From assembly GCA_963775655.1 (NCBI GenBank), contig CAVZJT010000007.1:680230-744229 (forward strand): 64,000 nucleotides of DNA, written 5' to 3'. The notes under the pieces are model-generated. The model was not told the DNA's origin. It did not search any database and saw only the letters and a program-made list of their open reading frames with translations. Both the position numbers and the translations under genes were made by a program. How positions within the stretch are numbered: position 1 is the stretch's first letter; each line of letters begins with the position of its first letter. The DNA comes from an uncultured Actinomycetota bacterium (GTDB lineage Bacteria > Actinomycetota > Actinomycetes > Mycobacteriales > QHCD01). Below are positions 2,326-54,342 of the stretch, piece after piece.

Positions 2326-3272
2326 CAGTGATCCTCTCGTCCGATGCCGAAGAAGTGCGCGAGTACGCGGGTCAGGACGAACACGACGATGAAGAGCAGG
2401 AACCCGGCCGCCGCGGCGTAGCCGAAGTCCTCGCGCTCGAACGCGGCGCGGTAGATGAAGTACGCGACGCTCATCGTGGATTCGCCCGGGCCGCCTTGCG
2501 TGAGGATGAACGGCTCTTCGAAGATCTGCGCCGCGCCGATGAAGACGGTGATCGCCACGAACGCGGTCACCGGCTTGAGCATCGGGACGGTGACGTTGCG
2601 GAACTTGCCGAGCGCGCCGGCGCCGTCGAGATCGGCTGCCTCGTAGAGGTCGCGGGGAACGCTCTGCAGTCCGGCGAGGAAATAGATGACCAGGTATCCG
2701 GTCCAGCGCCAGATCAGGACGATGACGATCGCCACCTTCGCCCAGTTGGGAGCGCCCAGCCAGTTGACCGGCTTGATCCCGATCAGACCGCGCAGCACGG
2801 CGTTGAGCAGGCCGAAGTTCTGGTCGAAGATGATCGTGAAGACGAGGGAGACCACGACGGGGGACAGCACCATCGGCAGGAAGTAGCCGACCCGGAACAT
2901 GTCCCGGCCGCGTAGTCCGCGGGTGTTGAGCGCGGTGGCGATCACGAGCGCGAGCGGCGTCACGACCAGCACGCTGGCTGCGACGTACCACAGGGTGTTG
3001 GTCACTGCGCCGTGGAAGCTGGAGTCGCGGAACAGCCGGGTGTAGTTGCTCAGTCCGACCCAGGTGCTCGGCCCGATGCCGGCCCACTCGTGCAGGCTGA
3101 GCCAGAACGCGTAGACCGTCGGTCCCAGCAGGAAAAGCACGTAGAGGACGTAGAACGGCGACACGAACAGGTAGGGCACCAGTCGGCCGTGCTGGCGGGT
3201 GCGCCCAGCCGGCAGCGTGCGGGACTTCCGGTCACCCGCCGGTCGGCGCAGGACGGTCGAGGTCTCAGCCAT
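2325..3272 (-). CDS. carbohydrate ABC transporter permease (MalF-like)
   Basis: 315-aa ORF, polytopic, with an EAA loop YEAADLDGAGALGKFRNVTVPMLKP. Confidence 0.85.
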   Translation of the reverse strand: MAETSTVLRRPAGDRKSRTLPAGRTRQHGRLVPYLFVSPFYVLYVLFLLGPTVYAFWLSLHEWAGIGPSTWVGLSNYTRLFRDSSFHGAVTNTLWYVAASVLVVTPLALVIATALNTRGLRGRDMFRVGYFLPMVLSPVVVSLVFTIIFDQNFGLLNAVLRGLIGIKPVNWLGAPNWAKVAIVIVLIWRWTGYLVIYFLAGLQSVPRDLYEAADLDGAGALGKFRNVTVPMLKPVTAFVAITVFIGAAQIFEEPFILTQGGPGESTMSVAYFIYRAAFEREDFGYAAAAGFLLFIVVFVLTRVLAHFFGIGREDH

Positions 3273-3281
3273 TCTCGTCGC

Positions 3282-4604
3282 TCACTTCATCTGGGAGGTG
3301 ATGGATGCGGTGGCGCTCTTGACGGCCTGTGCTGCGGTCTTGCGGCCGGTGAGGGCGTCTTCGAGGGCGATCGACAGCTCGACCGTCATGATGTTCCAGT
3401 ACGGGCTCTGGTACTGGGTCGGCGCATCGTTGGACAGGCTCTTGAACAGCCGGAACGAGTGCTGGCCACCCAGATACGGGTCGGTGAAGTCGATGAGCTC
3501 CTTGTTGTCCCACGCCTTCTTCATGGTCGGCAGGAAGTGGATCCGCTTGAAGCGCTCGACCTGGCCTTCCTCGGTCAGATAGACCTTCTGCAGCAGGTCC
3601 CAGGTCGCATCCGTGCCGGCCATGCCCTTCGAGACGCAGAATCCGGTGCCGCCCCACACGCTGGTGGGATGCCCGCCGCCGGCGAAGCGGGGGAGCGGAC
3701 GCATCCGCCACTTGCCGGAGAGTTCGGGTGCGGTCGACCGGAGGATGAAGCTCTCGAACCAGTCCGGCATGAAGAAGGCGGCGCCCTTGCCCTGCTTGAT
3801 CGCGGCGGTGCCGGGGCCGCCGTAGAAGTCGCTGACCATCAGGAACGCCCCGGAATTCACGCCGTCGACCATCAGCTGGATCGCGTCGACCGTCTCCCGG
3901 CTGTCGATGGTGAGGTTGCCGTCCTTGTCGAAGAACTGTCCGCCCCGCTGCTGCAGCAGGATTCCGAGCCAGGTCAGGTCGCCGCCCTGCGGGATTCCGA
4001 CCACCCCGAGCGACACGCCGTGTTTGTCGTGGACCTGCTTACCGACCTTCAGGACGTCGTCCCACGTGTCGAGTTCGACCGGGATCTTGTACTTCTCGAA
4101 GAGGTCGGCGCGGTAGTAGTAGACCGCGAGCGGGAAGGACGACTCGACGCCGTACTGCCGTCCGCCCACCTGGTACGGCGCCCAGCGGGACGCGAAGAAC
4201 TGGTCCCGGACGGCGGCGATCCGGTCGGTCAGGTCCACGAACACGGTCGGCGCGATCCCGGCCTTCATGAAACGGGAGAACTGCGAGATCTCGATGCCGG
4301 GTAGCTCCGGCGGGTGGCTGTGCGCGGTGTACGCCGAGAGGGTCTTCGTGGCGACGACCTCGGAGTCCTGGACCAGCGGGCGCAGGTTGTAGCGGTACGT
4401 CGCCGACGGCGTCGACAGGCGCTTCGCCCACCAGGTGAAGAGGTTGACGTAGTTCTGGTCGTTGGTCCACAGGTTCACGTCGACCGAACCGGACTTGATC
4501 GGGGCCTCCGGGCCCTGACCGCAGGCTGCGAGGCCGGGCGCCAGCAGGCCTCCAGCGGCCGCCGCGCCCCCGAACCTCAGCAGGTCGCGTCGTGACAAGG
4601 CCAT
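3282..4604 (-). CDS. sugar-type ABC transporter solute-binding lipoprotein (family 1)
   Basis: 440-aa ORF. Twin-arginine/lipoprotein signal MALSRRDLLRFGGAAAAGGLLAPGLAAC. First transporter gene of the operon. Confidence 0.85.
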   Translation of the reverse strand: MALSRRDLLRFGGAAAAGGLLAPGLAACGQGPEAPIKSGSVDVNLWTNDQNYVNLFTWWAKRLSTPSATYRYNLRPLVQDSEVVATKTLSAYTAHSHPPELPGIEISQFSRFMKAGIAPTVFVDLTDRIAAVRDQFFASRWAPYQVGGRQYGVESSFPLAVYYYRADLFEKYKIPVELDTWDDVLKVGKQVHDKHGVSLGVVGIPQGGDLTWLGILLQQRGGQFFDKDGNLTIDSRETVDAIQLMVDGVNSGAFLMVSDFYGGPGTAAIKQGKGAAFFMPDWFESFILRSTAPELSGKWRMRPLPRFAGGGHPTSVWGGTGFCVSKGMAGTDATWDLLQKVYLTEEGQVERFKRIHFLPTMKKAWDNKELIDFTDPYLGGQHSFRLFKSLSNDAPTQYQSPYWNIMTVELSIALEDALTGRKTAAQAVKSATASITSQMK

Positions 4605-4631: not shown

Positions 4632-5843
4632 TCAGACCGTGCTGATGCGTCGTCGTACGTCGGCGCGGTCGGCGAGCCCGTCGACCAGCCGCAGCCCGAG
4701 ACCGGGTTCGCGGGTCGGCGCGATCCGGCCGTCGACGACCTCCGGCAGGCCGACGACGAGGTCGGCGTACCAGGTCCGCAGGAATGCCCGGACGGTCTCC
4801 TGGATGAGGCTGTTGGGCTGGCTCATGACCAGGTGCACGCACGCGGCGAAACTCACCGGGCCGGTGCAGTCGTGCGGCGCGATCGGCACGCCGTAGGTGT
4901 CGGCGAGGGCCGCCACCTTGCGCGCCTCGGTGATACCGCCGGTCCACTGCACGTCGACGGTGACCACGTCGAGCGCGCCGGACTGCAGGAGCGGCAGAAA
5001 TCCGCGGCGTCCGATGCACGTCTCGCCGGTGGCGATCGGTACGTCGACCCGCGACGCGAGTCGCGAGAACGCCTCGACCTGGTCTCCGCGCACCGGATCC
5101 TCGACCCAGAAGGGCTGGTAGGGCGCGACGGCGGCGCAGATCCGCTCGGCGGTCGGCCGGTTCCAGAGCCCGTGCAGTTCGACCATCAGCCGCATGTCGA
5201 GCCCGACGGAGTCCCTGATCGCGGCGAGGCACCGCAGTCCGGCGTCCAACTCCGCGGGTGAGATCTCGTTGCCCGCGGTGCGTTCGGCCGCGGTGTCGAA
5301 CGGCCAGACCTTCATCCCGCCGATGCCCTCGGCCAGGAGTTCCTTGGCCAGCGCCGCCGGCCGGTGCAGGAAGGCCTCGAGGTCTTCGTACCGGCCGGCG
5401 TCGCCGACGCCCCAGTTCGCCGACTCCTGCCGGCCGGAGGTGGCGATGTATCCCGGGCCGGCGCAGGTGTTGTAGACGTCGATGTCGTCGCGCACCGGGC
5501 CGCCGAGCAGGTCGGTCACCGGCAGACCGGCCTGCCGGCCGAGCAGGTCCCACAGCGCGATGTCCACCGCGCCGAGGGCCCGGGTCTCCACTCCGCCGCC
5601 CTGGTAGCCGACGTAGGGCGCGAGCAGACGGCTGATCCGTTCCGGGCGGGGATCGGTGCGGTCCAGCAGCGCCGGCGCCACCACCGAATGCAGGTAGGCC
5701 TCGACGGCGTCCGGGCTGAAGAACGTCTCGCCGAGCCCGACCGCGCCGTCGTCGGTGTGCAGCCGGAGCAGCAGCACGTTGGGCTGGAAATCGGGACGCA
5801 GCGTCTCCAGAGCGGTGAGCCGCACGCTGCCTACCTCCACCAT
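4632..5843 (-). CDS. enolase-superfamily enzyme (mandelate racemase/muconate lactonizing family, probable acid-sugar dehydratase)
   Basis: 403-aa ORF. N-terminal capping domain (LLLRLHTDDGAVGLGETF) and barrel-domain motifs (MVELHGLW, FWVEDP, IATGE). First gene of the sugar operon. Confidence 0.8.
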   Translation of the reverse strand: MVEVGSVRLTALETLRPDFQPNVLLLRLHTDDGAVGLGETFFSPDAVEAYLHSVVAPALLDRTDPRPERISRLLAPYVGYQGGGVETRALGAVDIALWDLLGRQAGLPVTDLLGGPVRDDIDVYNTCAGPGYIATSGRQESANWGVGDAGRYEDLEAFLHRPAALAKELLAEGIGGMKVWPFDTAAERTAGNEISPAELDAGLRCLAAIRDSVGLDMRLMVELHGLWNRPTAERICAAVAPYQPFWVEDPVRGDQVEAFSRLASRVDVPIATGETCIGRRGFLPLLQSGALDVVTVDVQWTGGITEARKVAALADTYGVPIAPHDCTGPVSFAACVHLVMSQPNSLIQETVRAFLRTWYADLVVGLPEVVDGRIAPTREPGLGLRLVDGLADRADVRRRISTV

Positions 5844-43090: not shown

Positions 43091-43160
43091 CCCATTCCGC
43101 ATCAACGTGACGTTGATGCGGCTAGAGCGCTTGAACGTGACGTTCAAGCGGAATGGCGGG
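43091..43160. repeat. 70-bp nested-palindrome unit, copy 1 (A type, solo)
   Basis: CCCATTCCGCATCAACGTGACGTTGATGCGGCTAGAGCGCTTGAACGTGACGTTCAAGCGGAATGGCGGG. Confidence 0.9.
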
Positions 43161-43238
43161 CCGCGCTCCGATGGCGTGCGGCGTCGATCTGGTCGGCCGT
43201 GGTCCGACATCGTGCGCCGTACGCGGCGTCCTCCGCCG

Positions 43239-43308
43239 CCCATTCCGCATCAACGTGACGTTGATGCGGCTAGAGCGCTTGAACGTGACGTTCAAGCGGA
43301 ATGGCGGG
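43239..43308. repeat. 70-bp nested-palindrome unit, copy 2 (A type)
   Basis: Identical to copy 1. Followed after 4 bp by copy 3. Confidence 0.9.
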
Positions 43309-43312
43309 CCAC

Positions 43313-43382
43313 CGCATTTGGCATCAACGTGACGTTGATGCCGCTAGATGGCTTGAACGTGACGTTCAAGCCGAATGGAGGG
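43313..43382. repeat. 70-bp nested-palindrome unit, copy 3 (B type)
   Basis: CGCATTTGGCATCAACGTGACGTTGATGCCGCTAGATGGCTTGAACGTGACGTTCAAGCCGAATGGAGGG. Confidence 0.9.
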
Positions 43383-43398
43383 GCGCGCCCCGTGCGGG

Positions 43399-45033
43399 TC
43401 AGGGGTCGCCGAGGACCGCGCGCGCCGCGAGACCCAGCGGCAGGCTGCCGCTCCCGGCGATCGCCGCGTGGAAGTCGGCCAACGGCGCTCCCGGGTTGGC
43501 GGCCCGCCAGCGCTCCCGGATCGCTTCGATCTCCAAGGCCCCGGTGAGGTACGACGCCGCCTGCGTCGGCCAGGCGCAGTAGCGCCGGACCTCGACCTCG
43601 GCGGTGTCCCGGGAGAGCGAGGCCTTGGTCGCCATCGTGTCAACCGCCTCCTCGACGCTCATGTCGCCGGCGTGCAGCGCGGTGTCGACCACGATCCGGG
43701 CGGCCCGGAAGATCCGGGCGTCGAGGTGGGCGAGCACGTGCCGCTGGTCGGTGAAGAAGCCCTCCTCATACATCATCCGCTCGGCGTAGAGCGCCCATCC
43801 CTCGCCGAAGTAGGGCGTGCCGAGCAGCTTGCGGATCGGCCGCGTGCCGCCGGCCGACCAGGTGCGGTGCCAGTGGTGTCCGGGGTAGGCCTCGTGCACC
43901 GAGATGGTCGGGATCGATGCGCTGGCGTTGGTCTGCAGCCGCTGCTGGACCTGCTCCGCACTCGCGTCGTCGGCGGTGAACGGGACGAAGAAGTGCCCCA
44001 GCCGCCGGTCGGTCAGCGGCGGGGGACCGGCGTACGACGCCACCGCCAGCACCGGCCGCTGGAACACCGGGGCGGGCACGACCGCGCACTCCTCGCCGTC
44101 GGCGAACGGCACGAGCTTCCGGTCGCGCAGGAAGTCCCGGGCCTGCCCGGTCGCCGTCTCGTACTCCTGGCGCAGGGTCTCGAGGGTGGGCGCGTGTTCC
44201 TGGTTGAGCTCCTTCATCACGGCGAGCCAGTCCGGCCCGCCGCCCGGCATGTTCTCGGCGACCTTGCGCATCTCGGCGTCCAACTCGTCGTAGGCCGCCT
44301 GCCCGCGCCGATGCAGCGAGTTCGCGTCGAAGTCGAGCTGCTCCCGCTCGGCGAGCAGCGCGGAGTACAGCGGTTCGCCCAGCCGCCAGTCGCCGCCGGC
44401 GCGCTCGCCGAGGCCCTCCAGCCACTCCGCGAACCGCTCGAAGGCGAGTGCCGCCTCGGCCGCGCCGGCCGTGAGGGCGGTCCGCAGCCGCGGGTCCTCG
44501 GCCTCGGCCGGCAGGTAGTCGCGGGCGTAGCGGACGGCCGACCGGGCCTGCCCGATCGCCCGGTCGACGAGCAGCCGGGGAGTGAGCTCCGGGTCGAGGT
44601 TGGCCATCGCCGCGTCGAGGACGTCGGGGACCTGCCGCAGCCGGGCGACCGCGGCGTCGACAAGTTCGGCCTCCGGGTGCAGCCGGTGCAGGAAGAGCGC
44701 GTGCGGGCCGCGCAGGCACGGCTCGAGGTAGGTCGCGGGATCGCGTCGCCAGTCCGGTTGTTCGGCGAGCAGCACCCGGCCGCGCAACGTCGCGATCGCG
44801 AGGTCGCGGTCGATCCGCGCGTCGGCGTCCAGCCCGTCGTCGGCCACGCCGGTGAAGGTGGCGTGCCATTCGCGGTCGCGGGACGCGCGGCGTTCGCGGG
44901 CCGAGGCGGAGAAGTCGCCGAGCCGGTCGTCGTAGCCCACGGCACCGGCCGCCGACGCCATGACAGGTCGGTCCTCGAACTCCTCGGCGATGAACTGGTC
45001 CAGCAGGGTGGCGAGGTCCTGACTCTGCGGCAT
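43399..45033 (-). CDS. DUF885-family protein (putative metallopeptidase-like)
   Basis: ATG at 45033 (M281 of the 824-aa track ORF). 544 aa with HEAYPGHHWH and GEGWALYAE motifs, as I recall for DUF885. Confidence 0.75.
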   Translation of the reverse strand: MPQSQDLATLLDQFIAEEFEDRPVMASAAGAVGYDDRLGDFSASARERRASRDREWHATFTGVADDGLDADARIDRDLAIATLRGRVLLAEQPDWRRDPATYLEPCLRGPHALFLHRLHPEAELVDAAVARLRQVPDVLDAAMANLDPELTPRLLVDRAIGQARSAVRYARDYLPAEAEDPRLRTALTAGAAEAALAFERFAEWLEGLGERAGGDWRLGEPLYSALLAEREQLDFDANSLHRRGQAAYDELDAEMRKVAENMPGGGPDWLAVMKELNQEHAPTLETLRQEYETATGQARDFLRDRKLVPFADGEECAVVPAPVFQRPVLAVASYAGPPPLTDRRLGHFFVPFTADDASAEQVQQRLQTNASASIPTISVHEAYPGHHWHRTWSAGGTRPIRKLLGTPYFGEGWALYAERMMYEEGFFTDQRHVLAHLDARIFRAARIVVDTALHAGDMSVEEAVDTMATKASLSRDTAEVEVRRYCAWPTQAASYLTGALEIEAIRERWRAANPGAPLADFHAAIAGSGSLPLGLAARAVLGDP

Positions 45034-45059
45034 GAAGGAGACCCTAACCGTCCGCCAGG

Positions 45060-46043
45060 TCAGAGGCCGATCAAGGTCTGCCGGTCCTCGGCACCGAGCA
45101 GAGCCGGCGCGTCCGGTGCCGGGCCGCGCTCGCGGGTGGAGAAGAACAGCCGCGCCGTCGCGATCGTCGCCAGCGTGGCACCCGCGATGTGTACGCCGAC
45201 CAGCACGGCCGGCACGTGCGTGAAGTACTGCACGTAGCCGACCACCGCCTGCAGCACGACGACCCCGAGGAGGACGACCGCCCGACGCTGCGTACGCCGC
45301 GGTGCCCGGGTGGCCCGCAGGCCGAGGATCAGGGCGATCACGAGACCGACGTAGAGGAAGACGAGGTCGGCGTGGAACTGGGTGATCATGGTCGGGTCCC
45401 ACCCGAGCCGCCGGGTGTGGATGTCGCCGGCATGCGGTCCGGTCGCGGTCACCAACGTGCCGGCGACCAGCGTGGCCATGAGTACGACGACGAGGATCCG
45501 GATGCCGAGTTGGATCTCGCGTCGGACGAGCAGAGCGGGCGGGTCGTCGCCCTCCGTCGTACGGGCGTGCAGCCACACCGCGACGTAGGTCAGCACCATC
45601 GACAGCAGGAAGTGCGGGGCGACCGTCAGCGGGTTGAGCTTCTCGAGCACGGTAATGCCGCCGAGCACGGCCTGGGCGATGACGCCGAGGGGGAGGAGCA
45701 ACGCGATCGCGCGCACGTCCCGCCGACGCGGGCGCAGCCGCCAGGCGGCGACGACGCAAGCGACCGCGGTGGCGAAGACCAGGAAGGTGAGCAGCCGGTT
45801 GCCGAACTCGATCCCCTGGTGCACCGCGCCGGTCGGGTTGCCGGCGGTCGGCAGCAGGCTGCCGTTGGTGCACTGCGGCCAGGTGGGGCAGCCGAGCCCG
45901 GACTCCGAGAGCCGGACCGCGCCTCCGGTGACCGCGATCCCGGCATTGGCGACGATGGCCGCCACCGCGAGACCCCGCATCAGCCGCGGGCTCGTCGGCG
46001 TGTCACGCATCCGGCGGTACGCCGTCGCCAGGCCGTCCGTCAC
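45060..46043 (-). CDS. ctaA: heme A synthase (COX15/CtaA)
   Basis: C-terminal part of track ORF 45060..46877. GGAVRLSESGLGCPTWPQC, multiple TM spans with His residues. Start is uncertain (GTG 46043, ATG 46010 or ATG 45980). Confidence 0.85.
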   Translation of the reverse strand: MTDGLATAYRRMRDTPTSPRLMRGLAVAAIVANAGIAVTGGAVRLSESGLGCPTWPQCTNGSLLPTAGNPTGAVHQGIEFGNRLLTFLVFATAVACVVAAWRLRPRRRDVRAIALLLPLGVIAQAVLGGITVLEKLNPLTVAPHFLLSMVLTYVAVWLHARTTEGDDPPALLVRREIQLGIRILVVVLMATLVAGTLVTATGPHAGDIHTRRLGWDPTMITQFHADLVFLYVGLVIALILGLRATRAPRRTQRRAVVLLGVVVLQAVVGYVQYFTHVPAVLVGVHIAGATLATIATARLFFSTRERGPAPDAPALLGAEDRQTLIGL

Positions 46044-46090
46044 CCGCCGATCGTAGGCGTCGCCTCCCGGGCGCCCGCAGTGCGGGCCGC

Positions 46091-46877
46091 TCACTCCCAG
46101 CGGAACGTCGCCGCGGCCGCGGTCAGGGCGATCACGGCCCACACGGCCAGGGTCGCCGCGTCGTGCAGCGGCACCGGCCGGCCGTCGCGGAGGACGGCCC
46201 GCAGGCCATGGGCGAGCGCCGTGGTCGGCAGGTATCCGAGCCAGGTCGCCAGCCCGTGGGGGAACTTCGACAGCGGGAAGATGACGTCGCCGAGGAAGAG
46301 CAGCACGAACCAGACCACGTTGGCGGCCGCCAGCGTCGCCTCCGCCCGCAAGGTGCCGGCCAGCAACAGCCCGAGCCCGGCGAAGGCCGCCGTACCGAGG
46401 ACGACGAGCAGCGCCACCGAGGCGGCCGACCCGTGCGGCTGCCAGCCGACGGCCAGTCCGACCAGGCAGATCACCGCGATCTGCGACTATCTCCACACAG
46501 ACGACGGCACAGGTCTTGCCCAGCAACAGCACCGACCGGGGCAGGGCGGTCACCCCGAGGCGTTTCAGGATTCCGTACTTGCGTTCGAAGGCGGTCGCGA
46601 TCGCCTGCCCGGTGAACGCCGCCGACATGATCGCCAGCGCCAGGACGCCCGGGACGAAGAAGCCGGCCCGGCTCCCTCCGACGCTGACGAACGGCTCCAG
46701 GACGAGCACGAGGACGAGCAGCAACGGGATGATGAGGTTGAGCAGGAGTTGCTCGCCGTTGCGCAGGATGAGCTTGAGCTCCATCCAGGTCTGGGCCGCC
46801 AGCATCCGCGGCAGCGGTGCGGTGCCCGGTCGCGGGATGAAGGTGCCGGGCCGCAGCGGCGCGATGTCGTCGGTCAC
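46091..46877 (-). pseudogene. ABC-2-type exporter permease, interrupted by an apparent +1 frameshift near 46484
   Basis: The N-terminal 131 codons are in the frame of ORF 45060..46877 (...LLLGKTCAVVCVEIV). The C-terminal part is in the frame of ORF 46091..46474 (QIAVICLVGLAVGWQPH...). Removing one base restores a continuous, plausible TM sequence. The GTG start forms a GTGA overlap with the ATPase stop. Confidence 0.7.
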
Positions 46878-47827
46878 GACCGCAGCTCCCGCCCGGTGAG
46901 ATCGAGGAAGACGTCCTCCAGCGACCGCTGCTCGATCTGCAGGTCGCGGGCCATGACGTCATGGCGGGCGCACCAGGCCGTGACCACGGCCAGCAGCTCG
47001 GGGTCGACCGGACCTTCGACCAGGTAGCACCCGGGCGTCGGCTCGCTGGCCCGGAAGCCGTCCGGCAGGACTTCCCCGAGGTCGGCGAGGTCGAGGCCGC
47101 CGGGCGCGCGGAATCGCAGCTGTCCCTTCGCGCCGCCCTGGGTGAGTTCCGCCGGCGACCCGTCGGCGACGCACCGGCCGTGGTCGATCACCACGACCCG
47201 GTCGGCGAGCTGCTCCGCCTCTTCCATGTAATGAGTGGTCAGCACGACGCTGACGCCATCCGCCCGGAGGGCCCGCACGACGTCCCAGGTCGCGTGCCGC
47301 GCCTGCGGGTCGAGCCCGGCCGTCGGCTCGTCGAGGAAGACCAATTCCGGTCGGGCGACGATCGCCATCGCCAGCGACAGCCGCTGCTTCTGCCCGCCGG
47401 AGAGCCGACGGTACGGCGTCCGTTCGACGCTGCGCAGACCCAGCCGCTCCAGCAGTTCGTCGCAGTCGAGGGGCTCACGCGCGTAGGCCGCAAGCAGCCG
47501 GAGCATCTCGCCGGCCCGGGCGCCCATGTAGGCGCCGCCGCCCTGCAGCATGGCGCCGACCCGGGGCCGCAGCGACGCGCGGTCCTTGATCGGATCGAGA
47601 CCGAGTACCCGTACCGTGCCGCCGTCCGGTCGGCGGAAGCCTTCGCACGTCTCGACGGTGGACGTCTTGCCGGCGCCGTTCGGGCCGAGCAGTGCCAGCA
47701 CACCGGCGCGGGGTGCGACCAGCGACAAGCCCGCGACGGCGACGAGATCGCCGTAGCGCTTGACGAGTCCGCGGACCTCCAGCGCGGGGACATCGGATCG
47801 TACTGCCCCGTTCGCGGAAAGTCCCAC
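46874..47827 (-). CDS. ABC transporter ATP-binding protein (partner of the ABC-2 permease)
   Basis: LEVRGLVKRYGDLVAVAGLSL...LLGPNGAGKTST, LSGGQKQRL, LVFLDEPTAGLD. Start is uncertain (GTG 47827 chosen, no clear SD). Confidence 0.85.
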   Translation of the reverse strand: MGLSANGAVRSDVPALEVRGLVKRYGDLVAVAGLSLVAPRAGVLALLGPNGAGKTSTVETCEGFRRPDGGTVRVLGLDPIKDRASLRPRVGAMLQGGGAYMGARAGEMLRLLAAYAREPLDCDELLERLGLRSVERTPYRRLSGGQKQRLSLAMAIVARPELVFLDEPTAGLDPQARHATWDVVRALRADGVSVVLTTHYMEEAEQLADRVVVIDHGRCVADGSPAELTQGGAKGQLRFRAPGGLDLADLGEVLPDGFRASEPTPGCYLVEGPVDPELLAVVTAWCARHDVMARDLQIEQRSLEDVFLDLTGRELRS

Positions 47828-48165
47828 GCCAGCGAGGATATGTCGGCACAACCGCGGGTCGCCCGGCAGGTCAGCGCGGTCGCGACGCGACCTGTGGCGA
47901 ATCGTGACAACGGTGGACGAGTGCACCGCAAACGCTGCCCCGACCCGTAAATGATCATGCCGGAGATGCTTGCGCGCCCTAGGTTGCACCCCCTAGCCTC
48001 CCGTCAGCATTAACCCGAGTTCGTATGACGACATAGGACTGACGCCTCCGGCATGACGCCGGCAACCGGCCCGGTCGCTCGACGGGACAGCGTTCTCCGC
48101 CGGGTCGAGTCGGCGGTCCGGCGCGTGTTCCCCGGTCGTTCAATCCATTGGAGGAGCTAGGGATT

Positions 48166-49930
48166 ATGGCCGACCTGCCACATCTGCACCGGACCCGCAG
48201 ACAGTTTCTTGCCGATGCCGCGATTCTGGGTGCTGGAGCCACGTTGGGCGGGGGCCTACTGAGCGCGTGTACCGGCGCGAAGGGAGGCGCGACGGGCAAA
48301 CGGGCGCAGACGTTGTTCGTCGCCGGCTTCCAGTGGGGACCGCCGACGAACTTCAATCCGCTGAGCCCGACCGCGGCCTGGCCGGCCGGGGAGAACACCG
48401 AGCAGTACATCTACGAGACGCTGTTCGGATTCGACCTGCTCGACGGCAGCCTGAAGCCGGCGCTGGCCAAATCGCTGCAGTTCCAGAACAAGACGACGGC
48501 GATCGTCACGCTGCAGAACGGCACGCACTGGCAGGACGGCAAGCCGTTGACCGCTGACGACGTGGTCTACACCTTCGAGCTCGCCAAGCGTCACAAGGAG
48601 ATCTCCTACGCGACCTTCTGGGACTACGTCAGCGCGATCTCAAAGGTCAATGCCACGACGGTGAAGGTGAGCCTGAACTCCAGCAGGCTGAACCCCGGAA
48701 TGGTGAAGGGCTCGCTGGCCGGGACCTACATCCTGCCGGCCCACGTGTGGGAGGGCGTGGAGAAGAAGAACTCGCAGATCACGCAGTACACCAACATGAA
48801 GCCGATGGGCTCCGGGCCCTACACGCTCGCCAACAGCAGCGCGACCCAGGTCGCGATGAATCGCACCGACAGCTACTGGGGCAAGTCCGCGCACGGCAGC
48901 CTGCCGCACCCGCGCTACATCGTGCACCCCATCTTCAAGGACAACGACGCCGGCGACCTCGCCTTCCAGCAGGGTCAGGTCGACGTCTCGCAGCAGTTCA
49001 CGCCCCAGATCTGGCAGATGTGGGAGAACAAGCACCTCCCCGTGCAGACACTGGTACGACAAGTCGCCCTATCACGTGCCCGGCAGCATCCCGATGCTCG
49101 TCGTCAACACCACGAAGAAGGGCCTCGACAACGTCAAGGTGCGGCTGGCGCTGGCGCACGCCATCAACTACGCGCAGATCGCCAACACCGCCATGTCGCG
49201 GTATTCCAAGCCGGCCAACTCCAGCGTGGTCCTGCCGACCGGTGCCGAGGCGGAGTACTTCAACCCCGCGAACGTGAAGGCCAACGGCTGGAGCTACGAC
49301 CCGCACAAGGCGGTCCAGATCCTCGAGCAGGAGCTGCACTGCAAGAAGGGCAGCGACGGCATCTACCGCCTTCCGGACGGGACGCGGCTCGGTCCGTGGA
49401 CCGCGCAGACCCCGACCGGGTGGTCGGACTGGCAGACCGGGCTGCAGGTCGTCGCCTCGAGCGCGAAGGCCGTCGGCATCGACATCCAGACGCAGTTCCC
49501 GCAGGCACCGCAGGTCACCCAGGCCGTGCAGAACGGCGACTTCGACCTGGCGTGCTGGGGCGTGTCCGGCGTGAGCCCGGCGACGCCGTGGCAGCGTTTC
49601 CGCGACGTGCTGGACTCCCGGGGCGTGCCGAAGGCCGGGCAGTCGGCGTTCTACAACTACGGCCGCTTCCATGACAGCCGGGTGGGGCCGCTCCTCGACA
49701 AGGTGGCGACGCTCAACGGTGCGCAGGCGAAGGAGATCTACACCGAGCTCGACAAGATCTTCATGCAGAACGCACCGATGATCCCGTTGATGTACCGGCC
49801 ACTGGAGTTCTTCGAGTACAACGCCTCGACGTGGACCGGCTGGCCGAACTCCAAGCACCCCACCGCGCCACCGCAGTTCTCCGGCGCCGGATCGATGTGG
49901 CTCTACCAGATCAAGCCCAAGTCCGCGTGA
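48166..49930 (+). pseudogene. family-5 (peptide/nickel type) ABC solute-binding lipoprotein, interrupted by an apparent +1 frameshift near 49048-49051
   Basis: ATG at 48166 after GGAGGAG. Tat/lipobox signal RRQFLADAAILGAGATLGGGLLSAC. The frame of ORF 48148..49674 is protein-like up to ...WENKHLPVQT. It continues as WYDKSPYHVPGSIPMLVVNTTKKGL... in the frame of ORF 49076..49930. Confidence 0.7.
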
Positions 49931-49979
49931 CGGCGTTCCTGCGGTCAGACGGGGGCCGCGGAGCGGGAGGTGACCTGGG

Positions 49980-50987
<1,008 letters not shown>

Positions 50988-50990
50988 GCC

Positions 50991-51920
50991 ATGGGCCTTG
51001 CGCGACTCACTCCACGCTTCTACATCGGTGCCGGCATATTCATTCTCATCGTGCTGTTCGCCTTCCTCGGCCCGGTGATCTTCTCCGGGACACCCGGCAC
51101 GGTCGTCGGCGGTCTCTACGACCACCCGTCCGGCCATGCCTGGCTCGGCACCGACAACCTCGGCCACGACGTGTTCGCCAACCTGATGTACGGGACCCGG
51201 ACGTCGCTGATCATCGGGTTGATCGCCGGGACGGTGGCCACCTTGATCGGTGTGGTGACGGGCACCTTCGCGGGCTACAAGGGCGGCATCCTCGAGGAAT
51301 CCCTGATGGGCTTCACCAACGTCGTTCTCGCGATCCCGTCGATCGTCGTCCTGATCCTGCTGTCGATCGCGCTGCACTCGCGCTCGGAGCTCACCCTCGC
51401 CCTCGTCATCGGTGTCACGAGCTGGCCCTGGACGGCACGCGCGGTGCGGGCACAGGCGAACAGCGTGAAGACCCGGGAACACATCGATGTGGCCCGGCTG
51501 TCGGGCGCGAGTTCGTTCAGCCTCATCAGCTTCGACGTACTGCCCTACATCCTGAGCTACGTCTGCATGGCGTTCGTGCTGCAGGTCGCCGGCGCGATCC
51601 TCGCCGAGGCGGGCCTGTCCATGCTGGGCCTGGGGCCGAGTGACGGCGTCTCGCTCGGCATCATGCTGCACTGGGCACTCGCGTGGGAGTCGATGCGCAC
51701 CGGCGCCTGGTGGGCGTTCGTGCCGCCGACCCTGCTGCTGACCCTGATCGCGTTCTCCCTGCTGATGTTGCAGTCGAGCCTCGACGAGGTGTTCAACCCG
51801 CGGCTGCGCCGTGGTGGGACGCGGCTGCGGTCGGTGCCGGTCACCGAGCCGGCCACGGCGGCTGGTTTCGCCTCCGCCGGCGAGGCGGCCGCCATCGAGA
51901 TCGAGGGGGCCAACCGGTGA
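50991..51920 (+). CDS. peptide-type ABC transporter permease (DppC/OppC-like)
   Basis: 309 aa. HAWLGTDNLGHDVFANLMYGTRTSL, EAA-type loop. Confidence 0.88.
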   Translation: MGLARLTPRFYIGAGIFILIVLFAFLGPVIFSGTPGTVVGGLYDHPSGHAWLGTDNLGHDVFANLMYGTRTSLIIGLIAGTVATLIGVVTGTFAGYKGGILEESLMGFTNVVLAIPSIVVLILLSIALHSRSELTLALVIGVTSWPWTARAVRAQANSVKTREHIDVARLSGASSFSLISFDVLPYILSYVCMAFVLQVAGAILAEAGLSMLGLGPSDGVSLGIMLHWALAWESMRTGAWWAFVPPTLLLTLIAFSLLMLQSSLDEVFNPRLRRGGTRLRSVPVTEPATAAGFASAGEAAAIEIEGANR

Positions 51921-52954
51921 CCACCGAGACCACCACCACGACGACCACCTCGACACAGCTGCTGGCGGCTCGCGGACTGCGTGCCTGGTACGCCGGTCAC
52001 GGCGGCCAGGGCACCATGGCCGTCGACGGTGTCTCGATCGACGTCCGCGAGGGCGAGGTGCTCGGTGTCGCCGGGGAGTCCGGCTGTGGCAAGTCGACGC
52101 TGGCCTCGGTCCTGTCCCTCACCGCCCGGCCGCCGCTGTACGTGCTCGAGGGTGAACTCGAGGTCGCCGGCGAGACGCTGAGTTTCGAGCCGCGCCGCCC
52201 GCCGCCGCGGTCGTGGCGTGGTGAGGCGGTATCCCTGCTGCCGCAGGGAGCGATGAACTCGCTGAGCCCGACGCTGCGCATCCGCGACTTCGCCTTCGAC
52301 ATCATCCGCGCGCACGACCGCAAGGTGCACCGGGACGAGGCGATCGACCGCGCCGCCGAACGGCTCGAGCAGCTCGACCTACCGCGCCGGGTCCTCGAGT
52401 ACTACCCGCACCAGCTCAGCGGCGGCATGAAGCAACGTGTCGTCACCGTGCTCTCCACCCTGCTCAACCCGAAGCTGCTGATCGCCGACGAGCCGACATC
52501 GGCGCTCGACGTCTCCTCGCAGCGGATCCTCATCGAGTTGCTCCGCGAGCTGCTGTCCCGCCGATTCATCACCGGCGTCATCTTCGTGACGCACGACCTG
52601 CCCGTACTCAATGCGATCGCGGACCGGATCGCCATCATGTACGCCGGTCAGGTGGTCGAGGTCGGCGCGGCCGAGGAGGTCATCAACCGGGCCCGGCACC
52701 CGTACAGCGCGGCGCTAGTGCACTCGGTGCTCGTCCCGGAGCCACAGATCCGCACCCGCCGGATCACCGGGATCACCGGCTCCCCGCCCGACCTGGTCAG
52801 CCCACCGTCGGGTTGCCGCTTTCATCCGCGCTGCAGCCTTGCCATGGACGTCTGTACGACGGAGCAGCCGCCGATGGTCGGTGACCCGCGCCGGTTCGCC
52901 AGTTGCTGGTGGTCGCGCGACCACAACGGCGAGCCCGTGGAGGCGAAGCTGTGA
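51917..52954 (+). CDS. peptide-type ABC transporter ATP-binding protein (DppD/OppD-like)
   Basis: GTG at 51917 (V79 of the track ORF) forms a GTGA overlap. Thr-rich N-terminus, GESGCGKSTLA, LSGGMKQRV, C-terminal CRFHPRC motif. Confidence 0.88.
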   Translation: MTTETTTTTTTSTQLLAARGLRAWYAGHGGQGTMAVDGVSIDVREGEVLGVAGESGCGKSTLASVLSLTARPPLYVLEGELEVAGETLSFEPRRPPPRSWRGEAVSLLPQGAMNSLSPTLRIRDFAFDIIRAHDRKVHRDEAIDRAAERLEQLDLPRRVLEYYPHQLSGGMKQRVVTVLSTLLNPKLLIADEPTSALDVSSQRILIELLRELLSRRFITGVIFVTHDLPVLNAIADRIAIMYAGQVVEVGAAEEVINRARHPYSAALVHSVLVPEPQIRTRRITGITGSPPDLVSPPSGCRFHPRCSLAMDVCTTEQPPMVGDPRRFASCWWSRDHNGEPVEAKL

Positions 52955-53787
52955 CCCGCCCCAGCGTGCCGCGGGAGCGCGGATCGGAGCAGGGCACCGC
53001 GGAGCACGGCGCTGCTCCGCTGCTCGAGGCCCGCAACCTGACCCGGCTCTTCGGCCACGGCGACCACGTCGTCCGCGCCGTCGACGACGTGTCGTTCACC
53101 GTCGGCCGCAACGAGATCGTCACCGTGGTGGGCGAGAGCGGCAGCGGCAAGTCGACCCTCGCCCGGCTGCTGCTGCGGCTGCTCGACCCGACCTCGGGCT
53201 CGATCCTGCTCGACGGCAAGGACATCACCGCGATCGAGGGCCGCGACGTCAAGTCCTACTGGCGCGAGGTGCAGGCGGTCTTCCAGGACCCGTTCAGCGC
53301 GTTCAACCAGTTCTTCACCGTCCGCAGGCTGCTGCAGCGCTCCCAGGGACTGCTCTCCGAGGCCGAGCAGCTCGTCGGCGCCGAGGACCGGATGATCGCC
53401 GCTCTCGAGCAGGTCGGGCTGAAGGCGAAGGACGTGCTCGGCAAGTGGCCGCACCAGCTCTCCGGCGGCCAGCGGCAGCGGGTGATGATCGCCCGGGCCC
53501 TGATGATGCGCCCGCGCGTCCTGATCGCCGACGAGGCCACCTCGATGCTCGACGCGTCGCTGCGGGCCAACATCCTCAACGTGCTGATGGACCTGCGCCG
53601 CGACCAGGACATGACGATCATCTTCATCACCCACGACATCGGCCAGGCCTGCTACGTCAGCGACCGGATCCTGGCCATGTGCAAGGGCGAGCTGGTCGAG
53701 TCGGGCCCGACCGACGAGGTGATCTTCGCCCCGCAGCACGAATACACCCAGGGCCTGCTGGCCGACGTACCCCGCCTGCACACCTGA
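52951..53787 (+). CDS. peptide-type ABC transporter ATP-binding protein (DppF/OppF-like)
   Basis: GTG at 52951 (V17 of the track ORF) forms a GTGA overlap. [31 protein letters not shown]. Confidence 0.88.
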   Translation: MTRPSVPRERGSEQGTAEHGAAPLLEARNLTRLFGHGDHVVRAVDDVSFTVGRNEIVTVVGESGSGKSTLARLLLRLLDPTSGSILLDGKDITAIEGRDVKSYWREVQAVFQDPFSAFNQFFTVRRLLQRSQGLLSEAEQLVGAEDRMIAALEQVGLKAKDVLGKWPHQLSGGQRQRVMIARALMMRPRVLIADEATSMLDASLRANILNVLMDLRRDQDMTIIFITHDIGQACYVSDRILAMCKGELVESGPTDEVIFAPQHEYTQGLLADVPRLHT

Positions 53788-53815
53788 CCCCCGGATTTTC
53801 GGCACCACCCCGTGC

Positions 53816-53885
53816 CCCATTCCGCATCAACGTCACGTTGATGCGGCTAGACCGCTTGAACGTGACGTTCACGCGGAATCGGGCC
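53816..53885. repeat. 70-bp nested-palindrome unit, copy 4 (A type variant)
   Basis: CCCATTCCGCATCAACGTCACGTTGATGCGGCTAGACCGCTTGAACGTGACGTTCACGCGGAATCGGGCC. Starts 29 bp after the ABC ATPase stop. Confidence 0.9.
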
Positions 53886-53889
53886 GCCC

Positions 53890-53959
53890 TCCATTCGGCA
53901 TCAACGTGACGTTGATGCGGCTAGATGGCTTGAACGTGACGTTCAAGCCGAATGGCGGC
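53890..53959. repeat. 70-bp nested-palindrome unit, copy 5 (B type)
   Basis: TCCATTCGGCATCAACGTGACGTTGATGCGGCTAGATGGCTTGAACGTGACGTTCAAGCCGAATGGCGGC. Confidence 0.9.
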
Positions 53960-54098
53960 CGGCGGACGGGCTTTGGTGCCCGCCGAGGCCGCCGGCCGTG
54001 GCGACACATCGTGCGTCGTACTCGCATCCACGGGGCAAATCGGCGATTAGCACACACGATGTCGGCGACCACCCCTCGGCGTACGCCGACATCAGCCC

Positions 54099-54168
54099 TC
54101 CATTCCGCATCAACGTCACGTTGAGGCGGATAGAGCGCTTGAACGTGACGTTCACGCGGAATCGGCCG
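54099..54168. repeat. 70-bp nested-palindrome unit, copy 6 (A type variant)
   Basis: TCCATTCCGCATCAACGTCACGTTGAGGCGGATAGAGCGCTTGAACGTGACGTTCACGCGGAATCGGCCG. Confidence 0.9.
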
Positions 54169-54171
54169 CCC

Positions 54172-54241
54172 TCCGTTCGGCATCAACGTGACGTTGATGC
54201 CGCTAGATGGCTTGAACGTCACGTTCAAGCCGAATGGCGGG
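54172..54241. repeat. 70-bp nested-palindrome unit, copy 7 (B type)
   Basis: TCCGTTCGGCATCAACGTGACGTTGATGCCGCTAGATGGCTTGAACGTCACGTTCAAGCCGAATGGCGGG. Confidence 0.9.
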
Positions 54242-54304
54242 GCAAGGGAAGCGGTCATATGGGGAGATACCGGCAGTGGTGACCGGCGTCACCGGGGGTC
54301 CTGT

Positions 54305-54342
54305 TTGCCGCGGGAGCCGATAAACGACACAATAGTGTTGTG
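54305..54342 (+). promoter_or_regulatory. candidate leaderless sufR promoter (-35 TTGCCG, 17 nt, -10 CACAAT) with overlapping dyad CACAA-N5-TTGTG (possible SufR operator)
   Basis: AT-richer patch GATAAACGACACAATAGTGTTGTGAAATT in a GC-rich context. The dyad (54328-54342) includes the GTG start. CACAAT ends 6 nt before the start codon. No SD. Confidence 0.35.

What the first reader, a model, noticed from the sequence alone, without database searches (positions are those of the whole stretch)
43091..54241. Seven copies of a ~70-bp hierarchical palindrome carrying 14 AACGT-S-ACGTT dyads
Copies: 43091-43160, 43239-43308, 43313-43382, 53816-53885, 53890-53959, 54099-54168 and 54172-54241.

Consensus: CCATTCSGC-ATCAACGTGACGTTGAT-GCSGCTAGA..GC-TTGAACGTGACGTTCAA-GCSGAATGG.

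Each unit has three levels of symmetry:
- Two 17-19-bp (near-)perfect palindromes, CATCAACGT-G-ACGTTGATG and CTTGAACGT-G-ACGTTCAAG, which share the core AACGT-S-ACGTT.
- Outer arms CCATTCCGC and GCGGAATGG that are mutually complementary.
- A whole-unit dyad centred on CTAGA.

As DNA the unit could form a cruciform. As RNA it could form a two-hairpin or three-way-junction fold. It could also be a pair of dimeric-protein binding sites.

All copies are intergenic. Copies 1 and 2 are 100 percent identical over 70 bp. I cannot assign the unit to any REP/MITE/MIRU family I know.
Basis: seen in the sequence. Interest (0 to 1): 0.7.

Follow-up and report, generated by a model that had tools for sequence, protein, structure and literature searches.

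The report
REP-like nested-palindrome repeats in actinobacteria
A 70-bp palindrome-within-a-palindrome is copied dozens of times between genes, mostly just after stop codons, in a small group of uncultured soil actinobacteria; it behaves like the REP/BIME repeats of E. coli but matches no family in Rfam or in the papers searched, and it is conserved as tightly as protein-coding positions.

Summary
Seven ~70-bp units and 14 AACGT-S-ACGTT cores lie at the stated coordinates; chance predicts 0.02 cores.

The unit is not a local oddity. At least 70 full units in 47 intergenic clusters occur in the window and in two related genome assemblies (MAGs, ~85% nucleotide identity). Sister families with the same 11-bp core, 30-bp spacing and a TAGA-type centre occur in Actinophytocola, Lentzea and Haloechinothrix (Pseudonocardiaceae).

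Anatomy: each unit is a co-oriented pair of ~30-bp hairpin modules closed by a 9-bp outer stem. There are two subtypes, I and II, whose arms differ by compensatory changes and which usually sit in tandem as I-II.

Location: units lie a median 38 bp after stop codons and are enriched between convergent genes. They show no target-site duplication, no U-tract and no promoter.

Conservation: orthologous units are 88-95% identical. Neighbouring third codon positions are 74-81% identical, and the spacers cannot be aligned.

There is no Rfam, plasmid, phage or literature match.

Best reading: a previously undescribed REP/BIME-like hairpin repeat family. It probably acts as a U-tract-less 3'-end hairpin. 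It spread by an unidentified trans-acting factor and is reshaped locally by recombination. No RAYT-type transposase was found, so membership of the REP-RAYT family is unproven.

The parts
43091..43160 (+). Unit 1, subtype I (arms CCATTCCGC / GCGGAATGG; hairpin 1 CATCAACGTGACGTTGATG; centre GCGGCTAGAGCGC; hairpin 2 CTTGAACGTGACGTTCAAG). Cores at 43104 and 43134.
   Evidence: folds as a three-way junction, z -7.2 as RNA and -7.9 as DNA
43239..43308 (+). Unit 2, subtype I, 100% identical to unit 1. Cores at 43252 and 43282. Orthologous to L024 2098-2167 (95.4%) and L008 3160-3229 (92.3%).
43313..43382 (+). Unit 3, subtype II-like (arms GCATTTGGC / GCCGAATGG; centre GCCGCTAGATGGC), 4 bp after unit 2, forming an I-II tandem. 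Cores at 43326 and 43356. It ends 17 bp from the stop codon of the DUF885 gene.
53816..53885 (+). Unit 4, subtype I, with a C at the centre of hairpin 1 and the TTCACGCGGAATCGG variant. It starts 29 bp after the stop codon of the oligopeptide ABC ATPase gene. Cores at 53829 and 53859.
53890..53959 (+). Unit 5, subtype II-like. Cores at 53903 and 53933.
54099..54168 (+). Unit 6, subtype I, sharing the derived variants of unit 4. Units 4-5 and 6-7 are 93.8% identical across their length, including the junction between units, so they are a local segmental duplication. Cores at 54112 and 54142.
54172..54241 (+). Unit 7, subtype II-like. Cores at 54185 and 54215. It is the only unit with a counterpart at the orthologous site of MAG MFD00822, where the unit is a hybrid with a subtype I left arm and a subtype II right arm.
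54003..54065 (+). Element B: a second, unrelated dispersed hairpin repeat lying between the two I-II pairs of cluster 2 (left arm GACACATCGTGCGTCGTACTCGC, 17-nt loop, degenerate right arm).
   Evidence: nine copies aligned, A7
43203..43225 (+). Left half only of element B, in the spacer between units 1 and 2. The orthologous spacer in L008 carries a complete B.

Best explanation
The units belong to a previously undescribed family of REP/BIME-like hairpin repeats in a Pseudonocardiaceae-related lineage of Actinomycetota.

Anatomy. The basic module is a ~30-bp hairpin whose tip is the invariant AACGT-S-ACGTT. Two co-oriented modules joined by a (C)TAGA linker and closed by a 9-bp outer stem make the 70-bp unit. 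Subtype I and subtype II units usually sit in tandem.

Shown:
- The family is dispersed over dozens of intergenic sites.
- Units lie just downstream of stop codons, preferentially between convergent genes.
- There are no target-site duplications.
- Base pairing is kept through compensatory changes.
- Units are conserved between species about as well as first and second codon positions, while the surrounding spacers have diverged beyond alignment.
- Arrays grow and shrink locally by duplication and by recombination between the repeated cores.

Inferred:
- When single-stranded, as a transcript or as DNA during replication or under supercoiling, the unit folds into a very stable two-hairpin junction or an alternative long hairpin.
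- In mRNA this would act as a U-tract-less ('I-shaped'), orientation-independent 3'-end hairpin that terminates transcription, protects the 3' end, or both. That would explain the position and the constraint.
- The original dispersal needed a trans-acting enzyme that recognises the conserved hairpin tip and TAGA loop. A single-strand-DNA hairpin transposase of the HUH/RAYT kind is the obvious model, but none was found.
For: - Real and non-random: 14 cores against 0.02 expected.
L088 carries a unit missed by the truncated scan, so these counts are lower bounds.
- Structure: z-scores of -4.1 to -7.9 on both strands. 94.4% of cells pair in the three-way-junction model, with compensatory pairs at columns 7-67, 10-64, 11-63, 16-28 and 44-60; no shuffle or slid control reaches this.
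- Location: all clusters are intergenic, a median 38 bp from the upstream stop codon (7 bp in the other genera). Convergent regions are enriched: 29% of occupied regions against 11% of all regions, P = 0.002. There is no orientation bias relative to transcription, 12 same against 11 opposite.
- No target-site duplication.
- Constraint: orthologous units are 88-95% identical against 74-81% for third codon positions of the flanking genes, and the spacers are unalignable.
- Array dynamics: there is one hybrid I/II unit in MAG H where the window has I-II-B-I-II. Units 1 and 2 are identical, and the two I-II pairs of cluster 2 share derived variants. Single-hairpin 'solo' forms exist. All 23 adjacent unit pairs are co-oriented.
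- Stable hairpins without U-tracts are a major class of mapped transcript 3' ends in Streptomyces (PMC8269248).
Against: - No transposase of any kind was found next to units, and a motif screen for RAYT/IS200 signatures over about 0.75 Mb of fetched DNA was negative. That screen was crude, and the whole genomes could not be scanned.
- No clean empty-site versus filled-site pair was obtained, so mobility is inferred from dispersal only.
- There is no unpaired GTAG or CGTC tag, and the modules are co-oriented rather than inverted, unlike classical REPINs and BIMEs.
- Persistence at orthologous sites, and constraint on almost every position, would also fit a host-encoded function unrelated to mobility, or homogenisation by gene conversion.
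- There is no canonical terminator tail and no expression data.
Confidence: 0.6

Rival explanations
1. The units are arrays of double-strand-DNA binding sites for a dimeric protein, such as a nucleoid-associated protein or a global regulator. The 5-1-5 dyad AACGT-S-ACGTT would be the site. The 30-bp (about three helical turns) spacing would put two dimers on one face of the helix.
For: The core is an ideal dimer site and is invariant in 68 of 68 copies, whereas adjacent stem positions vary. The same core is kept in several genera whose flanking stems differ. Core-to-core spacing is fixed at 30 bp. Sequence constraint goes beyond what base pairing alone needs.
Against: None of the 143 cores stands alone; every one is embedded in a unit or a solo hairpin. 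Palindromy extends 12 bp either side of the centre, and the outer arms pair across 50 nt with compensatory changes, which a binding site does not need. Units sit after stop codons and between convergent genes rather than in promoters. No candidate protein is known, and the motif is absent from the searched literature.
Confidence: 0.12
2. The unit is a dedicated structured RNA, a three-way-junction cis-regulatory element or small RNA with a specific ligand or protein partner, rather than a generic hairpin repeat.
For: The predicted junction is very stable, with compensatory changes in all three helices. G-U pairs outnumber A-C mismatches 40 to 19 on the strand that carries G at the hairpin centres. 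Near-total sequence conservation is typical of RNAs with tertiary or protein contacts.
Against: Orientation relative to the flanking genes is random, 12 same against 11 opposite, so half the copies would be transcribed as the complement. Both strands fold equally well. Units occur in tandem arrays of one to four next to unrelated genes. No promoter lies in or beside the units. No Rfam family matches. The G-U excess comes mostly from one inherited variant.
Confidence: 0.1
3. The unit is a classical MITE: a deletion derivative of a DDE-transposase insertion sequence, with the 9-bp arms CCATTCCGC/GCGGAATGG as terminal inverted repeats.
For: The terminal arms are inverted repeats that co-vary between subtypes. 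The family is dispersed, multi-copy and intergenic. Extra copies of the arm motif are about 19-fold enriched next to units.
Against: No target-site duplication of 2-8 bp appears at any tested boundary; at best 5 of 68 copies agree, which is near chance. No insertion sequence carrying these ends occurs in about 0.75 Mb of fetched DNA, in plasmids or in phages. At 70 bp the unit is short for a MITE. Units form co-oriented tandem arrays.
Confidence: 0.04
4. The units are only a local tandem or segmental duplication (a minisatellite) with no dispersal mechanism.
For: Units 1 and 2 are identical, and the two I-II pairs of cluster 2 are a segmental duplication. Copy number at orthologous sites differs between species.
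Against: The same unit is found at 47 or more separate intergenic clusters with unrelated flanking genes on many contigs.
Confidence: 0.03

Closest known systems
REP / BIME elements and REPIN-RAYT systems of Proteobacteria (E. coli, Pseudomonas, Stenotrophomonas)
   Same: Short, GC-rich, imperfectly palindromic modules of ~30 bp. Tens to hundreds of extragenic copies. Clustering into composite arrays of two module types. A location at gene 3' ends and between convergent genes. No target-site duplication. Persistence at orthologous sites. Sequence held close to a consensus.
   Different: There is no unpaired GTAG or CGTC tag. The two modules of a unit, and all units of a cluster, are co-oriented instead of alternating. 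An outer stem encloses the pair and gives a three-way junction. No RAYT was found. The phylum, Actinomycetota, is absent from the REP surveys read (PMC3733652; zero mentions of Actinobacteria in the RAYT papers listed).
IS200/IS605-derived palindrome-associated transposable elements (PATEs)
   Same: Two similar but not identical subterminal hairpins in the same orientation on one strand, a small size, and no target-site duplication (own knowledge of the family; for the missing duplication).
   Different: PATEs lack terminal inverted repeats and insert 3' of a specific tetra- or pentanucleotide. Here the ends are inverted repeats, the only flank signal is a C-run and a G-run, and no TnpA or TnpB gene was seen.
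Bacterial MITEs such as Correia/NEMIS (Neisseria), ERIC/IRU, and RUP or BOX (Streptococcus)
   Same: Small, non-coding, dispersed, foldable repeats with inverted ends, often co-transcribed with neighbouring genes.
   Different: Those elements are typically 100-200 bp or longer, create target-site duplications or have a defined target, and lack the nested 30-bp hairpin periodicity. No duplication is found here.
I-shaped (U-tract-less) intrinsic terminators and structured 3'-end hairpins of high-GC Actinobacteria
   Same: A very stable GC-rich hairpin immediately after the stop codon with no T-run. Hairpins of this kind form a large class of mapped transcript 3' ends in Streptomyces (PMC8269248).
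   Different: Ordinary terminators are unique sequences. These are ~90-95% identical copies of one sequence at dozens of loci.
MIRU (mycobacterial interspersed repetitive units)
   Same: Actinobacterial, intergenic, 50-100-bp units in short tandem arrays whose copy number varies between relatives. MIRUs were first seen next to a two-component system, as cluster 1 is here (own knowledge).
   Different: MIRUs are not palindromic and carry small overlapping reading frames. These units are nested palindromes, and their length is not a multiple of three.

Membership tests
REP / REPIN-RAYT | Short (20-40 bp) imperfect palindrome in high copy number, extragenic | tested here: met
   Each ~30-bp hairpin module has a 12-bp stem. 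At least 70 units (140 modules) occur in 47 intergenic clusters.
REP / REPIN-RAYT | Conserved unpaired GTAG (or CGTC) tag at one end of the palindrome | tested here: not met
   The ends are paired arms (CCATTCCGC/GCGGAATGG). The only conserved unpaired motif is the central CTAGA. The CGTC within the core is base-paired (definition from PMC3733652).
REP / REPIN-RAYT | Two REPs in inverted orientation forming one long hairpin (REPIN) | tested here: inconclusive
   In the window lineage both modules carry G at the centre, so they are co-oriented: 52 and 54 of 60 distinct units. The long hairpin pairs in only 81.5% of cells. In Lentzea, Actinophytocola and Haloechinothrix most pairs are G...C, that is inverted and REPIN-like.
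REP / REPIN-RAYT | A cognate single-copy RAYT (Y1 HUH transposase) gene flanked by the repeats | not testable with these tools
   The whole genomes could not be scanned. A crude motif screen of about 0.75 Mb of fetched loci was negative.
BIME | REPs of different types in alternating orientation with defined linkers | tested here: not met
   Two unit types (I and II) do alternate, but all 23 adjacent unit pairs are co-oriented.
MITE (DDE-type) | Terminal inverted repeats | tested here: met
   The 9-bp arms are complementary and co-vary between subtypes.
MITE (DDE-type) | Target-site duplication flanking each copy | tested here: not met
   No boundary and length combination (2-8 bp) exceeds chance; the best is 5 of 68 copies.
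MITE (DDE-type) | A parent insertion sequence with the same ends | tested here: inconclusive
   None was found in the fetched loci, plasmids or phages. Complete genomes were not searchable.
IS200/IS605 PATE | Subterminal hairpins at both ends, no inverted ends, no duplication, insertion 3' of a fixed short target | tested here: inconclusive
   Two co-oriented hairpins and no duplication fit. However, the ends are inverted repeats, and the flank shows only a C-run and a G-run rather than a fixed target.
Any Rfam 15 RNA family | Match to a covariance model at the gathering score | tested here: not met
   There are 0 hits in the whole window. At E up to 10 only far-sub-threshold matches appear, mostly eukaryotic miRNA-precursor hairpin models.
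Canonical intrinsic terminator | GC-rich hairpin followed by a T-run | tested here: not met
   No terminator-like site occurs in either cluster.
I-shaped terminator / 3'-end hairpin | Stable hairpin without a U-tract directly downstream of a gene; produces transcript 3' ends | tested here: inconclusive
   Position (median 38 bp after the stop codon) and stability (-37 to -48 kcal/mol) fit. 3'-end formation cannot be tested here.
Transcription-factor operator regulon | Free-standing sites in promoter regions of regulated genes | tested here: not met
   Of 143 cores, 142 lie inside units and 1 in a solo hairpin; none stands alone.
MIRU | Non-palindromic 46-101-bp tandem units with overlapping small ORFs | tested here: not met
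   The units are nested palindromes, and the 73-74-bp period is not a multiple of 3.

The most novel reading that the evidence does not exclude
These repeats mark an RAYT-independent hairpin-repeat system specific to Pseudonocardiaceae-like actinobacteria. The invariant hairpin tip AACGT-S-ACGTT, together with the TAGA-type centre, would be the recognition module of an unknown conserved protein, either a new kind of hairpin-DNA mobilising enzyme or an RNA/DNA hairpin-binding host factor. The copies would have been domesticated as sequence-specific, orientation-independent 3'-end elements, which would explain why they evolve as slowly as coding positions.
Probability: 0.3. Interest if true: 0.65.

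Novelty: new variant of a known kind. Interest (0 to 1): 0.45.

Why it matters
REP, BIME and REPIN elements are textbook features of Proteobacteria. The surveys read here list none in Actinobacteria, and nothing in the literature searched links RAYT transposases to that phylum.

This is a well-defined hairpin-repeat family in high-GC actinobacteria with three notable properties. Its core is shared across genera. Its base pairing is maintained by compensatory changes. Its conservation equals that of coding positions. Together these give a concrete handle on two open problems:
- how such repeats spread without an obvious transposase;
- what ends and protects transcripts in organisms whose terminators mostly lack U-tracts.

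On the practical side, the units mark variable-copy loci and sit at rearrangement junctions, so they are potential strain-typing and assembly-breakpoint markers for this lineage. It remains a variation on a known theme, and there is no experimental evidence.

Tried and rejected
- **Insertion into pre-existing hairpins or terminators.** Some flanks looked as if they extended the palindrome. Across 68 copies, flank complementarity equals that of shuffled left and right flanks (mean extension 1.93 against 1.89). Only a general C-run and G-run remains. Rejected.
- **Target-site duplications.** None found.
- **Empty-site comparison.** The pair L032/L034 turned out to be synteny breakpoints, not clean empty sites.
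- **Replication-strand bias.** Orientation along the Mb-scale contigs shows no switch pattern (inspection only).
- **RAYT/IS200 motif screen** of all fetched DNA: nothing found, but the screen was crude.
- **ORFs bracketed by two units.** L005 holds ABC-transporter fragments. L081 holds a 337-aa ORF with no Pfam hit. Neither is a transposase.
- **Exact-protein look-up** of a window permease to identify the source genome: not on record.
- **Metagenome scan with SufR** to find close strains: the best hit was 66% identical and none carried cores.
- **Nocardia hits.** They are one conserved hairpin in the infB-rbfA operon, not a repeat family.
- **Non-actinobacterial and viral hits.** The non-actinobacterial hits (Clostridiales, Bdellovibrionota and others) are unrelated tandem repeats that share the core by chance. 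The two viral-contig hits were not inspected.
- **Consensus folding.** RNAalifold on the family prefers the long imperfect hairpin, while single-sequence folding and pair counts prefer the junction. The two conformers are alternatives built into the sequence, so neither was rejected.

Full report
**1. Observation**

The dyad AACGTSACGTT occurs 14 times in the 64-kb window, all inside these units, against 0.02 expected from dinucleotide-preserving shuffles. Units 1 and 2 are identical over 70 bp, and in fact over about 75 bp.

A profile search finds no further unit in the window. A three-mismatch search for hairpin 1 adds only one chance-like match.

**2. Surroundings**

The window is high-GC (~0.70).

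Cluster 1 (43091-43382) lies between the stop codon of a DUF885 gene and the start of an OmpR-type response regulator. Both genes are on the minus strand.

Cluster 2 (53816-54241) lies between the last ATPase gene of an oligopeptide ABC operon and a SufR-like regulator that heads a suf operon. These genes are on the plus strand.

Neither cluster contains a sigma-70-like promoter or a hairpin followed by a T-run.

**3. Anatomy**

Single units fold, on either strand and with RNA or DNA parameters, into an outer stem plus two hairpins. Energies are -37 to -48 kcal/mol as RNA, and z-scores are -4.1 to -7.9.

On an alignment of 68 copies (A6) this three-way-junction model pairs 94.4% of cells. Compensatory changes occur in all three helices, and no shuffle or slid control comes near. 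The whole-unit long hairpin pairs only 81.5%, although RNAalifold prefers it as a consensus. Both conformers are built into the sequence.

The unit is best described as two co-oriented copies of a ~30-bp hairpin module:

- module design: N-SCGC-NNN-AACGTGACGTT-NNN-GCGG-N
- linker between modules: CTAGA
- outer closure: the arms CCATTCCGC/GCGGAATGG

Two subtypes exist:

| Subtype | Arms | Centre |
|---|---|---|
| I | CCATTCCGC/GCGGAATGG | GCGGCTAGAGCGC |
| II | CCGTTTGGC/GCCAAACGG | GCCGCTAGAAGGC |

The window's own subtype II units are intermediate. The four positions that distinguish the subtypes change in concert.

Subtype I is usually followed 73-74 bp later by subtype II. All 23 adjacent unit pairs in 15 multi-unit clusters are co-oriented. 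Single-hairpin 'solo' forms also occur.

**4. Distribution**

By my rough estimate, chance would give one or two hits in the whole collection.

Most hits fall in these genomes:

- two MAGs, MFD00822.bin.2.25 and MFD05442.bin.3.622
- an Actinophytocola MAG
- Lentzea sp. NBRC 105346
- Haloechinothrix sp. LS1_15
- single loci of Streptoalloteichus and a Streptosporangiales MAG

The named genera are all Pseudonocardiaceae.

The window is syntenic with both MAGs at ~85% nucleotide identity, so it comes from a third species of the same clade.

In the window plus the two MAGs there are at least 70 full units in 47 clusters. A further unit, found by another route, shows that the scan was truncated.

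The family is lineage-restricted. There are no cores in 355 kb from 84 loci of more distant actinobacterial relatives, and no matches in plasmids or phages.

The families in the other genera have different stems but share three features:

- the same 11-bp core
- the same 30-bp core-to-core spacing
- in about 60% of pairs, a (C/A/G)TAGA or TCTA(C/G/T) centre, by my count from the listing

In those genera the two cores are mostly G...C, that is inverted and REPIN-like.

**5. Where units sit**

Every cluster is intergenic. The 47 clusters break down as 14 convergent, 23 tandem, 6 divergent and 4 undetermined.

Compared with all intergenic regions of the same loci, convergent regions are over-represented: 29% of occupied regions against 11% of regions and 8% of intergenic bases (P = 0.002 and 1.5e-4).

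The median distance to the upstream stop codon is 38 bp in this lineage and 7 bp in the other genera.

Orientation relative to transcription is random, 12 same against 11 opposite.

No core stands alone outside a unit.

**6. Evolution**

Orthologous units of the three species are 88-95% identical. In the adjacent genes, first and second codon positions are 90-98% identical and third positions 74-81%. The spacers between and around units cannot be aligned.

Identity among copies within a genome (0.91-0.93) equals identity between genomes. The subtype I consensus is identical in the window and in MAG H. Variation is therefore confined to about ten positions. That pattern fits purifying selection, or alternatively continuous homogenisation by gene conversion.

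Arrays are nevertheless dynamic:

- At the site of cluster 2, MAG H has one hybrid unit with a subtype I left arm and a subtype II right arm. The window has I-II-B-I-II there.
- At one orthologous site, one species has subtype I and the other subtype II.
- The window's duplicated I-II pairs share derived variants, including the junction between units.
- Short tandem copies of the terminal arm are about 19-fold enriched beside units.
- Some units lie at synteny breakpoints.
- Cluster 2 lies at the right junction of an ABC operon that is absent between the same neighbouring genes in more distant relatives.

**7. What it is not**

- It matches no Rfam family, either at gathering scores or at permissive E-values.
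- It has no target-site duplication.
- Its flanks show no copy-specific complementarity.
- No transposase motif occurs in the fetched DNA.
- The core motif appears in the searchable literature only in unrelated papers with no bacterial-repeat context.
- The REP super-family survey lists no Actinobacteria.
- The RAYT/REPIN papers retrieved do not mention the phylum.

**8. Interpretation**

The combination of features matches the REP/BIME/REPIN kind of element: a short hairpin module, many extragenic copies, composite arrays of two types, a 3'-end and convergent-gene location, no duplication, and persistence near a consensus. That is the best description of how it works.

Membership of the REP-RAYT family itself is not established. 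The terminal tag is absent, the modules are co-oriented, and no RAYT could be looked for genome-wide.

The most likely role of the copies is a U-tract-less, orientation-independent 3'-end hairpin. This is inferred from position, stability and constraint, and from the fact that such hairpins are a major class of mapped 3' ends in Streptomyces.

The conserved tip and TAGA centre across genera point to a conserved trans-acting partner that remains unknown.

Three rival readings are weaker but not excluded: a double-strand-DNA binding-site array, a dedicated structured RNA, and a classical MITE. The reasons are given with each rival.

**9. Verdict**

The feature is real, correctly described and dispersed. 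It is a new variant of a known kind of element in a phylum where the surveys read here list none. Interest is moderate. The mechanism of spread and the cellular role are inferred, not shown.

Noticed in passing
window 54003-54065 (full) and 43203-43225 (left half); L008 3021-3087, L046 3143-3206, L049 4510-4577, L047 1326-1388, L027 6742-6799, L013 7137-7197, L023 1612-1669, L052 227-286: A second, unrelated dispersed hairpin repeat ('element B'). Its consensus is CGACATCGTGCGCCGTACTCGCAT-N13-ATCGGCGAGTAGGACGCACGATGTCG, with a variable loop and two conserved stem mismatches. It is often sandwiched between the 70-bp units but also occurs alone. It has no Rfam match.
   Followed up: partly
L020 ~5520-5546, L026 ~963-1000, L045, L066 5000-5030 and 5100-5140, L088 3790-3835; weakly at window 53789-53815: Short tandem 'satellites' of the unit's terminal arm (ATTCCGC or GCGGAAT plus 5-8 nt) lie next to full units. 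The arm 7-mers are about 19-fold enriched within 120 bp of units. They may be deletion remnants or slippage products.
   Followed up: partly
window 48148-53787: The oligopeptide-type ABC operon has lower GC (0.657 against 0.70-0.74). It sits between an ABC exporter and sufR, which are adjacent (49-bp gap) in more distant relatives (L089-L092). This looks like a lineage-specific insertion whose right junction is repeat cluster 2.
   Followed up: partly
L032 3590-3686 versus L034 ~5030-5125; L034 7342-7510 versus L032 ~6884: Units sit exactly at the edges of synteny blocks between the two MAGs. Homology starts or stops within about 25-100 bp of a unit.
   Followed up: partly
L054 6321-6360, L063 6121-6160, L077 2670-2709, L082 6822-6861 (Nocardia spp.): A single long hairpin carrying the same AACGTSACGTT core twice is conserved in four Nocardia species between infB and a DUF503-like/rbfA-like gene pair (genes identified by eye from the ORF translations). 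It is not a repeat family, and may be an operon-internal processing or attenuation hairpin.
   Followed up: partly
L081 2802-3959 (Actinophytocola MAG): A 337-aa ORF (2900-3913; no Pfam hit; GC3 0.73, low for this genome) lies between two convergent genes. It is bracketed by two directly repeated long-hairpin elements of the family, which gives a cassette-like arrangement.
   Followed up: partly
L022 5322-5457 (Gemmatimonadales MAG MFD01275.bin.2.206): A nested palindrome in another phylum carries the core and the 13-nt centre GCGGCTAGATGGC, identical to the centre of window unit 5. This could be chance, horizontal transfer or a binning error.
   Followed up: no
window 54290-54340: A conserved palindrome, AACGACACAATAGTGTTGT, lies just upstream of the SufR-like gene and is retained in MAG H. 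It is probably the regulator's own operator. The last repeat unit ends ~50 bp upstream of it.
   Followed up: no
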